This document shows positions 27,001-30,000 of a DNA stretch of 64,000 nt, one piece after another (positions within the stretch are counted from its first letter, which is position 1; the number at the start of each line of letters is the position of its first letter). The translations under genes were made by a program, and so were the position numbers. The stretch is from Stylophora pistillata (Eukaryota): contig NW_019217807.1 in NCBI RefSeq assembly GCF_002571385.2, forward strand, positions 986,840 through 1,050,839, written 5' to 3'. The notes under the pieces were generated by a model that was given only the letters and a program-made list of their open reading frames with translations, was not told the origin of the DNA and did not search any database.

Positions 27001-30000
27001 AGAGAAATAAATGACATCAAAACTAAACGTCTTGTAAATGTGAGTGGTGGTGTCCTTGCGGGCGGGGATCTGGGGAGGAGGTCCGGCTTTGAGACCGGGC
27101 CTTAAACTCTCGCCATGCCTCTCTCTCCATTTAGAGAATGTATCCCTGTAAACCCAGGGATCTTTCAATGAGTCCTGATGAGACTTGAGGTAGCAATGCC
27201 TCAAGTTGCTCTTGAGAATGCTATCGAAACCGTTATTGGCTCCGACTATGTAGGCCTCTAGGTTTGTGTTCCAACGTGATCCGTGACATGTCAATTGGAC
27301 GATTACAAAAGCTTTTGTTGCAGATTTTATTACAATTTCCCAACGCTTTGATATTGTTTTTTCCCCACAAGGAAGAAAAGCTCGAACTGAACAAGCTGTT
27401 AGAACGTGTTCCTATCCCTGTCAAGGAGAGCATCGAAGAACCAAGTGCAAAGGTATCGTCGTTTTGTAAGCAAGTTGCACAGCTGTGAGAGTTTGGTACC
27501 TGTCTGTTCTGCAAGTTATTCCGCTTGCGACACAGCGATAAGTTTTTGACTTGTTTTCAAGATGAAAATTTGAGGTTATTGATTGAGCACGTGCAAGGAT
27601 CGGCTATTCTATGACTGCACTATGAACGTAGCAGCAAAACCCAAAGTGTCAAATTCCTGGACACCTTTCTTTGGTGTGCAGGGTCGAGTCTTTGGAACAG
27701 TGACATTTCAGATGGCATATTTGGCAGTTGCGAGAACTACGTTCGCTGTAGCTGCCTTATAGTTATCTGAAGACATGTAAAAAAAAAACAGAGTCTTCTG
27801 ATTTCTTTTGGGTGTTGCGTAGGAAATCCTCAACTGTTATCTTTTTTCCTTGCTGTCGATAGGTTAATGTGTTACTACAAGCATACATCTCTCACCTGAA
27901 GTTGGAGGGTTTTGCTCTCATGTCTGACATGGTTTATGTCACTCAGGTTAGTTATAAAAGGTCAGGGCTCATGTGTTCACAGGATGGATATCGCTATCCA
28001 GACAGCGAAATGAAGCAAAACCAATGCAAACATCGATTGGTATCCACGCTCAATTGAAATCTGCACCGACTCGTCCATGGCCATTAGTTAAAGTGTAATT
28101 TTCCTTTTTTTTTCCTCTGCAGTCATCTGGGCGGTTAATGAGAGCCATCTTTGAAATTGTGTTGAACCGAGGCTGGGCTCAGTTGACAGATAAATGTTTG
28201 AATTTGTGTAAAATGATCGACAAACGAATGTAAGTAAGATTTTCCCCCTGGATGAATATTTTGTATTTTGCTAATTTTCTGTTAGTCCCTGCGGGGCTCA
28301 GAAAATACAACGCAACTCGCTTATTTTATGTGCATATGCTATGTTAAACCATCGGGTAAGGTGAATTTGGGGTAAAAAAAATTGACAGCATTTGAGATTA
28401 TTTTACGTCCAGTGTGTCTTATTGGCAATAAGAGACGTTGATATTTTGTATCAATTTTAAGGTGGCTCTCTATGAGTCCTCTCCGACAGTTCAAGAAAAT
28501 CCCCATGGAGGTTATAAAAAGAATCGAGAAAAAGGAATTCCCCTGGGAGCGATACTACGACTTGGGAGCCACTGAGATCGGCGAGTTAGTGCACATGCCC
28601 AAAATGGGAAAGACGCTGTACAAGTTTGTACATCAGCTGCCGAAGATGGAGCTTGCGACCCATATCCAGCCCATAACCAGGTAGGTAGAGCGTAGAAAAC
28701 GATTTCAATTCTTTCTAAGGGCCTATCACGTGAAATCTGGTAACTTAAGTGGTGCGATTTTGGGACGAATTTTGCCATCTGTTCATTTTGAAAATTTCAA
28801 CCCAGTTTTTGCATTGGTACGGCTTGACCACACCACTTGATTAAAACTCCCGCTACTTTCTCGAGGATGTTTTTTTAAGAGAAAAAAAAAAAAAACGAAC
28901 TTGTCAATGTCTTTAAAGCGTTTCAGTAGAGTCTGCTTAAGAGAATATAAATTTTTGGGTGCGCTACGAATGTTTTTACAAAGTTCTGGACCAAAAGACC
29001 TTTTTAATGTTTGTTGTTCTTACCGATACTTGATTTAAAACTAATCACATTGAAATGGTTTCCGAATGCAAGAGGACCTAGAAGTTTTTCTCTTTGAGAA
29101 TAGTTCACAAATCGATTGACTCGAGGTCTAGGTTGTGCTAAGCATTTCGCTAACCTCTATTCTGTTGGGTCGTGCGAATCGCTTTGTGTTGGCAAAGTTA
29201 AGTACCACACTCGGTTGGAGAACTAACTACATCCCGTTCCCTCTGCAGATCCACTCTTAGTGTCGAGCTTTCCATCACCCCAGACTTCCAGTGGGACGAG
29301 AAAGTTCACGGGAACTCAGAGGCGATGTGGATTTTTGTGGAAGATGTGGACAGTGAAATCATTTTGCATCACGAGTACTTTTTGTTGAAGAGCAAGTTTG
29401 CGACGGATGAGCACTCGTTGAAGTTCTTTGTCCCTGTGTTCGAGCCGCTTCCTCCTCAGTATTTTATCAGAATTGTATCAGACAAATGGCTGGGTGAGAA
29501 TCTTGGGTTGACTCGCGACATTCAAATTCTGTTGACTGACTGTGCTTCATACAGCTTTTACGTGTAGTTTTTCGTGGGGAGAAATTAGACACTGATGTGC
29601 ACCGCTGCTTAGTGCTATGTCGCCAAAAATCTATCAACGGCGTCAGAGGGAAATTCGTTCGTGTATTTCCATTTTAAACGCGCATCAGAATCTACGTAAA
29701 TGCAGGACACTATTTGAAAACAAATTTAAAGGCCGTTTTTGTTTATCGGTGCTTCAGAGCGAGAGAGCTATTTCAAACGATACAAGCTGTGATTTGAAAT
29801 TCTCCGTCGTGCATATATTTTGTTCCTCCGTTCTGGATAAAATAATGTATGACGATCCAACTAATATTCGACAGTATCCGATGAGTTATAGTGATGTCTG
29901 CTAATGTATGAAAGTTGTGCTGATGTATGTTAATGTATGATATAGAGTGCGAGACTGAGAAAAAAAATTTTAGAATAAGGGTGAAATTAAACGACAGCAT

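What the first reader, a model, noticed from the sequence alone, without database searches (positions are those of the whole stretch)
27036..27291. Orphan ~255-nt H/ACA+CAB-like RNA in intron 19 with a three-way-junction 5' domain
Seen: a GC-rich island in an AT-rich intron. Basal stem AAATG/CATTT followed directly by H box AGAGAA; GTGGTG/CGCCAT closes a junction with hairpins TCCTTG-cggg-CGGGGA and AGGTCCGG-ctttgaga-CCGGGCCT (UGAG in the loop matches the CAB-box consensus); then hairpins ATCCCTG/CAGGGAT and ACTTGAGGTA-GCAA-TGCCTCAAGT (GNRA loop); a 3' hairpin and ACA+3 nt. It matches no family I can recall (lacks U17 m1/m2 motifs and a telomerase template). TGTCCTTGCG and GCCATGC are complementary to neighbouring parts of U6 (CGCAAGGAUG and GCAUGGC), the region Brr2 unwinds from U4, but both are sequestered in the predicted fold, so this may be coincidence.
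Basis: partly seen in the sequence, partly recalled or inferred. Interest (0 to 1): 0.7.

Follow-up and report, generated by a model that had tools for sequence, protein, structure and literature searches.

The report
U4-like RNA inside Brr2 intron
A single-copy, hairpin-rich stretch in an intron of a coral's Brr2 splicing-helicase gene is predicted to pair with U6 snRNA much as U4, Brr2's own substrate, does, so it is likely an unusual U6-binding small RNA rather than a standard H/ACA guide, though neither its expression nor its conservation is shown.

Summary
Three hairpins are solid, and basal stem plus three-way junction form once the H and ACA boxes are held free. No stable 3' hairpin precedes the ACA, so H/ACA membership fails on the 3' side. 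The element is single-copy, has no Rfam hit, is absent from the same intron in one other coral clade (3 loci), and has no reads in three RNA-seq runs; one total-RNA contig covers most of it. New here: its U6-complementary parts lie in U4's order (stem II strand, AAU kink-turn motif, stem I strand, GAAAC, stem III strand). They score -40.7 kcal/mol against U6 (real U4 -38.4); 0 of 901 shuffles reach that, and the U6 site ranks 9th of 4,896 target positions. The descriptor was post hoc, the kink-turn register is disfavoured by 9 kcal/mol, and there is no Sm site or U4 homology. Best reading (0.35): an atypical intron-derived U6-binding chaperone or guide. Chance structure is nearly as likely (0.30). 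The next intron holds a conserved, canonical H/ACA RNA that Rfam also misses.

The parts
26846..26998 (+). SNRNP200 (Brr2) coding exon ending ...ITVRE
   Evidence: translation and tblastn exon map; spliced reads; gene name from my knowledge of the protein sequence
26999..27371 (+). 373-nt phase-0 host intron, weak donor GTAGAG, acceptor CAAG
   Evidence: 33 raw reads in 3 runs and 1 contig skip exactly these 373 nt
27036..27040 (+). 5' strand of basal stem (pairs with CATTT 27128-27132)
   Evidence: forms when H and ACA boxes are held free; probability 0.02 or less otherwise
27040..27045 (+). cryptic 5' splice site GTGAGT; its use would add 41 nt with an in-frame stop
   Evidence: same U1 duplex energy as the real donor, -6.6; buried in the free fold; no read covers 27028-27369 in 3 raw runs
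27051..27069 (+). [quoted passage not shown]
   Evidence: -25.1 with U6 (U4: -23.8), -24.2 with U6atac (U4atac: -28.4)
27078..27103 (+). stable hairpin, loop CUUUGAGA with CAB-like UGAG
   Evidence: pair probability 0.99-1.0
27112..27127 (+). GCCAUGC (pairs U6 own 56-62) and GCCUCUCUCUC (best pocket arm for U6atac 15-24, 16 nt before the H box)
27133..27138 (+). H-box-like AGAGAA
   Evidence: sequence
27142..27161 (+). hairpin AUCCCUG/CAGGGAU
   Evidence: pair probability 0.84-0.99
27164..27218 (+). kink-turn-like stem-loop (UUC-AAU-GA ... GA-GAA, the same words as the genome's U4atac) enclosing the 10-bp GNRA hairpin 27183-27206
   Evidence: only kink-turn motif of its kind in the intron; competing Watson-Crick register is 9.4 kcal/mol more stable
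27219..27231 (+). U4-stem-I-like strand UGCUAUC followed by GAAACC (U4 has GAAAAC after stem I)
   Evidence: -7.2 with U6 (U4: -8.5), -6.2 with U6atac (U4atac: -9.7)
27170..27242 (+). overlapping hammerhead-like core (CUGAUGAG ... CGAAAC, 5-bp helix I), probably not functional
   Evidence: descriptor hit; not scored by a model of the genome's own hammerheads
27267..27274 (+). strand complementary to U6 own 33-40 (U4/U6 stem III position)
   Evidence: -9.5 (U4: -5.3)
27286..27291 (+). ACA+3 proposed as 3' end; no stable hairpin before it
27348..27352 (+). likely branch point (TTGAT, A at 27351); the total-RNA contig ends at 27349
   Evidence: sequence

Best explanation
This single-copy, hairpin-rich stretch in a coral Brr2 (SNRNP200) intron is likely kept after splicing as a small RNA and is predicted to pair with U6 snRNA over the same bases and in the same order as U4 does, which would make it an atypical U6 chaperone or modification guide rather than a standard H/ACA RNA. 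Shown: host intron, splice sites, three stable hairpins, single copy, and complementarity to the genome's own U6 and U6atac. Inferred: (1) the excised intron survives as a linear RNA or stable lariat; (2) 27051-27069 opens the U6 internal stem-loop, 27219-27225 pairs across the AGC triad and 27267-27274 pairs upstream of the ACAGAGA box; (3) a Snu13-type protein binds the kink-turn motif and the CAB-like loop sends the RNA to Cajal bodies; (4) holding U6 open helps its modification or its hand-over to U4.
For: U4-architecture score (stem II + kink-turn + stem I + stem III, each scored against own U6): intron -40.7, real U4 -38.4, real U4atac -33.3; 0 of 901 (relaxed) and 0 of 7,926 (AAU-type) dinucleotide shuffles reach it; best of 237 kink-turn motifs on both strands of the window, next -31.4. 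Swapping the target, the U6 site at U4's register ranks 9 of 4,896 positions and first among snRNAs. Cofold gain with U6 -15.1, as for U4/U6 -15.5; with U6atac the lowest-energy fold is the stem II + stem I arrangement, -11.5. G-U pairs, a GNRA loop and + strand bias point to RNA-level structure. One random-primed RNA run gives an intron-only contig 27075-27349 ending 2 nt before the likely branch A, and none on the next intron. The gene hosts a conserved H/ACA RNA next door.
Against: The descriptor and its spacings were set after seeing the element, after several other architectures had been tried. Four GC-rich 28S regions score as well as or better than U6. With U6 the U4-like arrangement (-9.2) is less stable than one using GCCAUGC (-15.1). 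The kink-turn register is 9.4 kcal/mol above a plain helix. No Sm site, no sequence homology to U4 or U4atac, no Rfam hit. Absent from the orthologous intron in 3 of 3 coral loci, which are 93-99% alike in the exon and count as one clade, while the neighbouring H/ACA RNA is conserved there. No intronic read in 3 of 3 raw RNA runs (probably mRNA-enriched, only 2-6% of each read); the one contig has depth 2.8 and may be DNA or pre-mRNA, and a control on other introns of that run was not obtained.
Confidence: 0.35

Rival explanations
1. Neutral, lineage-specific GC-rich intron sequence; hairpins and snRNA complementarity are chance, magnified by post hoc pattern search.
For: Not conserved in the one outgroup clade; no reads in 3 raw runs; whole-element z only -1.62; several mutually exclusive architectures (H/ACA, C/D, hammerhead, U4-like) each found some fit; 33 strong hairpins occur in 31.6 kb of the gene.
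Against: U4-order score beyond all shuffles and all 236 other kink-turn motifs of the window; core z -3.9 with + strand bias; two of the strongest hairpins of the gene lie within 130 nt.
Confidence: 0.3
2. An atypical H/ACA scaRNA whose 5' pocket would guide pseudouridylation of U6atac U25, the base just before the AGC triad (left arm ending 27070 or 27046, right arm 27117-27127, H box 16 nt downstream, CAB box in the apical loop).
Against: Against dinucleotide shuffles of the domain the short pocket is ordinary (163 of 472) and the long one marginal (7 of 166); the right arm is a CU repeat; no 3' hairpin before ACA; U5, U11, U12, 5.8S and parts of rRNA were not in the target set; in human only Psi83 is listed for U6atac (PMC7960923 Table 1; 10.1101/2024.01.08.574649 passages).
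Confidence: 0.13
3. A cis-acting U4 mimic in the Brr2 pre-mRNA: free U6 would pair with 27051-27069, loosen the hairpin that hides the cryptic donor at 27040, and divert the mRNA to a stop-containing form; Brr2 loading on GAAACC would reset it.
For: Location in the gene of the U4/U6 helicase; Brr2 loads on U4 just 3' of stem I (PMC11883072 passages); cryptic donor as strong for U1 as the real one and buried in the free fold.
Against: U6 binding frees the cryptic site only partly (most positions 0.05-0.34 unpaired); 0 of 33 junction reads use it (decay not blocked); not conserved in the outgroup.
Confidence: 0.1
4. A decayed hammerhead-bearing retroelement fragment (retrozyme or Penelope-like repeat).
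For: Core, 5-bp helix I and AUU triplet; only hit in the window, 0-1 per 3 Mb of simulated sequence; the genome has 253 core matches vs 43 for the reversed control; the X7 allele G27239A perfects helix I; size matches coral retrozyme monomers (PMC7229834 passages).
Against: Hammerhead fold -10.9 vs -23.1 for the best fold; 7-nt insertion in helix II, 1-bp helix III; a covariance model of 8 own hammerheads finds a held-out one at 17 bits but not this element at E up to 10; no similarity to 29 sampled loci of the 253; single copy.
Confidence: 0.08
5. A long box C/D guide for U6 Cm62/Cm63 (antisense 27051-27067, D'-like CUGG at 27070).
For: U6 C64/C65 (human 62/63) is the top hit for that box; Cm63 has no listed guide in human (PMC7960923 Table 1).
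Against: 19 of 300 shuffles do as well among snRNAs and 47 of 100 among all targets; a closing kink-turn arises in 28% of shuffles; no proper terminal C and D boxes; SNORD23 model does not hit.
Confidence: 0.04

Closest known systems
U4 and U4atac snRNAs (RF00015, RF00618; the genome's own copies L006, L010)
   Same: Order of parts and pairing strength to U6: stem II, AAU/AGU-type kink-turn motif directly before stem I, GAAA-rich single strand, upstream third helix. The words UUCAAUGA and UGAGAA are shared with own U4atac.
   Different: Intronic; about 95 nt inserted between stem II and the kink-turn; large apical hairpin; no Sm site; no detectable homology; pairs about equally with U6 and U6atac.
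H/ACA scaRNAs for U6 and U6atac (ACA12, ACA65, SCARNA21; PMC7960923 Table 1, PMC4914119 passages) and long-5'-hairpin H/ACA RNAs (telomerase RNA, U17, AluACA RNAs; recalled)
   Same: Intronic, basal stem + H box, CAB-like loop, branched 5' domain.
   Different: No 3' hairpin before the ACA; predicted site U6atac U25 is not a known human modification; no telomerase template or U17 m1/m2 words.
LARP7-dependent box C/D guides of U6 (SNORD94, SNORD67, SNORD23; PMC11863803 passages) and fission yeast sno530 (PMC10484740 passages)
   Same: Long complementarity to the U6 internal stem-loop; sno530 shows that U6 guides can have non-canonical boxes. A CCCUG/CAGGG helix in human U6 guides is recalled only; I could not confirm it in a held paper.
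   Different: No terminal C/D pair around the antisense strands; not significant against shuffles.
Minimal type I hammerheads of Penelope-like elements and coral retrozymes (PMC4209133, PMC7229834 passages)
   Same: CUGAUGAG...CGAAAC core with 5-bp helix I.
   Different: Broken helices II and III, single copy, not scored by a model of the genome's own hammerheads.

Membership tests
H/ACA scaRNA | 5' hairpin followed by H box ANANNA | tested here: met
   Basal stem forms when the boxes are held free; not in the free ensemble; 57 of 905 boxes have such a partner by chance
H/ACA scaRNA | 3' hairpin directly before ACA | tested here: not met
   27205-27291 z +0.92; no closing hairpin in constrained folds
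H/ACA scaRNA | RNA ends 3 nt after ACA | tested here: inconclusive
   No raw intronic reads; the one contig runs 58 nt past 27291
H/ACA scaRNA | CAB box (ugAG) in a terminal loop | tested here: met
   UGAG in loop 27087-27094; sequence match only
H/ACA scaRNA | bipartite pocket 14-16 nt from the box with a target U | tested here: inconclusive
   U6atac U25 rank 1 of 1,263; shuffles 163 of 472 and 7 of 166
H/ACA scaRNA | dyskerin and WDR79 binding, Cajal-body location | not testable with these tools
   needs RIP or FISH
U4/U4atac snRNA | stem II and stem I strands complementary to U6 or U6atac in order | tested here: met
U4/U4atac snRNA | kink-turn 5' stem-loop between stems II and I | tested here: inconclusive
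   motif present at 27164-27218; plain-helix register 9.4 kcal/mol better, non-canonical stem only G-U and U-U
U4/U4atac snRNA | Sm site AU4-6G | tested here: not met
   none in 27226-27371; own U4 and U4atac have AAUUUUUG
U4/U4atac snRNA | homology to the family; own snRNA gene | tested here: not met
   no Rfam hit; alignment scores at shuffle level; lies in a spliced intron
Box C/D guide of U6 | terminal box C (RUGAUGA) and box D (CUGA) enclosing the antisense element | tested here: not met
   the only CTGATGA is internal at 27175; closing kink-turn at 27042/27301 arises in 28% of shuffles
Box C/D guide of U6 | antisense duplex with target at the fifth base before D or D' | tested here: inconclusive
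   U6 C64/C65 top for CUGG 27070, but 19 of 300 and 47 of 100 shuffles
Type I hammerhead / retrozyme | core CUGANGA, GAAA, UH and helix I | tested here: met
Type I hammerhead / retrozyme | helices II and III closing on the core | tested here: not met
   7-nt insertion, 1-bp helix III, fold 12 kcal/mol above the best; model R2 does not score it
Type I hammerhead / retrozyme | multi-copy repeat family | tested here: not met
   single copy by DNA and pattern searches; diverged copies could be missed
Telomerase RNA / U17 | template CUAACC; m1 and m2 words (recalled) | tested here: not met
   no CTAACC, TAACCC, AAACCAT or TATTCC in the intron

The most novel reading that the evidence does not exclude
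The Brr2 gene of this coral lineage carries, in its own pre-mRNA, a U4 mimic that binds free U6 or U6atac and offers Brr2 a loading strand, coupling U6 and helicase supply to use of a poison 5' splice site: a helicase regulated through an RNA copy of its own substrate.
Probability: 0.1. Interest if true: 0.88.

Novelty: new variant of a known kind. Interest (0 to 1): 0.5.

Why it matters
No RNA other than U4 or U4atac that pairs with U6 in the full U4 arrangement turned up in my paper searches (listings only; most subscription journals are not held). If real, it is either a new way to chaperone or modify U6-type RNAs, with a testable target next to the catalytic AGC triad, or a feedback device for the helicase that activates both spliceosomes. 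If it is chance, it is an ordinary structured intron, and the lasting result is the conserved H/ACA RNA next door, whose pocket fits U2 U15, a human pseudouridine with no guide listed in PMC7960923 Table 1.

Tried and rejected
Rfam at gathering and E-value thresholds: no hit; the minus-strand SNORA44 match (19 bits, cut-off 55) is noise. Antisense U6 pseudogene and U4/U4atac pseudogene: alignment scores at shuffle level. Paralogues: DNA search, two patterns and a sequence-only model found only the locus itself (one search covered the window and 61 of the 135 loci held); the model could not be run on the whole genome. Orthologues: 80 Brr2 loci from metagenomes, 3 of them coral-like at 98% peptide identity, none with the element; none in prokaryote genomes or viral contigs. 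SNORD23 family: no hit over cut-off in the genome. Poison 5' splice site: not seen in 33 junction reads. A 13-bp match of 27045-27057 to 18S rRNA has no box after it and is expected by chance now and then (estimate mine). Flanking inverted repeats (17 nt, 76%) lack a target-site duplication. The mononucleotide arm shuffles (0 and 1 of 150) overstated the U6atac pocket; one search replaces them. One search timed out and crashed after its two null rows; redid the missing parts. Earlier-findings look-ups by sequence, place and words found nothing on this element. The LARP7 motif could not be checked: the primary paper is not held and the supplement search of PMC4914119 covered file 1 only and showed no sequences.

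Full report
Setting. The element lies in a 373-nt phase-0 intron (26999-27371) of a gene whose exons encode the Brr2/SNRNP200 helicase (name from my knowledge of the protein). Thirty-three raw reads in three runs and one contig join 26998 to 27372. Run labels point to a coral. The intron number was not counted.

Observation. All quoted motifs are in place. The three hairpins are robust (pair probability 0.84-1.0). The core 27070-27212 folds at z -3.9 on + and -1.9 on -, and the window at 27101 ranks 5 of 313 across the gene. The whole 256 nt is only z -1.62. The basal stem and three-way junction are rare in the free ensemble but are the best fold once the H and ACA boxes are held single-stranded, in a shifted register. 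The 3' third has no stable hairpin (z +0.92), so the ACA+3 end is unsupported.

Copies, conservation, expression. The element is single-copy by DNA search and by two patterns, and has no Rfam hit. Of 80 Brr2 loci from metagenomes, three are coral-like; their orthologous introns (671, 297, 290 nt) lack it. They are 93-99% alike in the exon and 81-82% like the window, so this is one distant outgroup. The next intron holds an element 91% identical over 76 nt in L011 and alignable in L013 that folds as a textbook H/ACA RNA (z -6.0) and that Rfam also misses: the gene is a snoRNA host, and lack of an Rfam hit is weak evidence of novelty. Three raw RNA runs (2-6% of each read) have no read in 27028-27369. 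One random-primed run has an intron-only contig, 27075-27349, depth 2.8, five differences, ending two bases before the likely branch A, and no contig on the next intron. This fits a stable intron or lariat, but DNA or pre-mRNA is not excluded, since no control on other introns of that run was obtained.

snRNA pairing. I fetched the genome's own U6, U4, U6atac, U4atac, U2, U1, 5S and most of 18S and 28S. The 5' domain binds U6 beyond shuffles (4 of 200 by cofold, 0 of 60 by best duplex) and U6atac marginally (6 of 200, 3 of 60), but not U4 or U4atac. It is not an antisense U6 pseudogene. As an H/ACA pocket the best of 1,263 uridines is U6atac U25, but shuffles give 163 of 472 for the short pocket and 7 of 166 for the long one. 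As a C/D guide the best site is U6 C64/C65, not significant.

U4-like order. Further 3', the intron's only kink-turn motif of the U4 kind (27164-27218, sharing UUCAAUGA and UGAGAA with own U4atac) is followed at once by UGCUAUC, which pairs across the U6 and U6atac AGC triad, then GAAACC, then a strand pairing with U6 33-40. A descriptor that recovers real U4 (-38.4 with U6) and U4atac (-49.6 with U6atac) scores the intron -40.7 and -33.7; none of 901 or 7,926 shuffles reaches either; it is the best of 237 motifs in the window. With decoy targets, U6 at U4's register ranks 9 of 4,896 positions, behind four GC-rich 28S regions. Against it: the descriptor is post hoc; the kink-turn register is 9.4 kcal/mol above a plain helix; with U6 the U4-like arrangement (-9.2) loses to one using GCCAUGC (-15.1), although with U6atac it is the best fold; there is no Sm site and no homology to U4 or U4atac.

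Other readings. A hammerhead-like core overlaps 27170-27242 and is rare in simulated sequence, and this genome has many true hammerheads. But helices II and III are broken, a model of eight own hammerheads does not score it, and 29 sampled loci are unrelated. A cryptic donor at 27040, as strong for U1 as the real one, would add a stop; it is buried in the free fold, only partly freed by U6, and unused in the reads.

Mechanism. I commit, at 0.35, to an intron-derived RNA that holds U6-type snRNA open over U4's footprint, as chaperone or guide. Sequence, splice sites, hairpins and complementarity are shown; survival after splicing, protein binding and any effect on U6 are inferred. Chance structure is 0.30, an atypical H/ACA guide for U6atac U25 0.13, a cis feedback device 0.10, a hammerhead remnant 0.08, a C/D guide 0.04.

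Literature seen. Passages only: PMC13109388, 10.1101/2024.01.08.574649, PMC4914119 (and a search of supplement file 1; files 2 and 3 not searched), PMC11863803, PMC10557570, PMC7229834, 10.64898/2026.07.22.740005, PMC4209133, PMC10484740, PMC8599867, PMC10083321, PMC11883072, PMC11498004. PMC7960923: passages and the first part of section 9 with Table 1. Searches for an intronic U6-binding or U4-mimicking RNA in SNRNP200 and for invertebrate U6atac guides listed nothing on it; listings only. AluACA RNAs, U17 and telomerase motifs, U4/U6 stem III, kink-turn rules and the LARP7 motif are recalled.

Verdict. A real cluster of RNA-type hairpins with a U4-like match to U6 in a striking place, but unconserved in the one outgroup, barely seen as RNA, and not a member of any family tested. 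Interest 0.5.

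Noticed in passing
window 27640-27778 (+), next intron; L011:3033-3153, L013:2713-2860: Conserved canonical H/ACA RNA (z -6.0; 91% over 76 nt with L011; pocket arms identical in three corals) missed by Rfam. Its 5' pocket fits U2 U15 (-27.0; human Psi15 has no guide in PMC7960923 Table 1) or, one register over, the 18S GGCU[UA]AUUUGAC site (-24.1). A likeness to SNORA5 is recalled only.
   Followed up: partly
window 26999-27004; L011:1654, L012:978, L013:1654: The weak donor of this Brr2 intron (GTAGAG or GTAGAC, no +5 G) is kept in all four coral loci.
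   Followed up: no
L011:1730-1810, L012:1055-1135, L013:1730-1810 (approximate): In the other corals the same intron holds RUGAUG ... CUGA about 70 nt apart with UUGCURAUU between, complementary to U6 AUUAGCA: a possible box C/D guide (Gm54 by the D' rule), but these loci are too close to each other to show selection. TGAGAATGC is shared between the window and L012/L013.
   Followed up: no
G000, 253 sites (e.g. L102, L104, L105, L113, L118): Several families of minimal type I hammerheads with strong covariation, some as inverted pairs.
   Followed up: partly
window 1367-1438 (-): tRNA-like repeat head (35 bits), the only Rfam hit in the window; a similar one in L011.
   Followed up: no
window 27045-27057: 13-bp complement to the conserved 18S stretch AAGGGCACCACCA, without a box after it.
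   Followed up: partly
window 42800-43000: Short tandem repeat giving the lowest folding z-scores of the gene region.
   Followed up: no
G000 C539 (L133) and C438 (L134): 5S, U1 and U2 genes clustered within 2.3 kb; U4 copies arrayed with tRNA genes.
   Followed up: no
window 27021-27037 with 27303-27319: Imperfect 17-nt inverted repeat bracketing the element, with GA/GA just inside it; no target-site duplication.
   Followed up: partly
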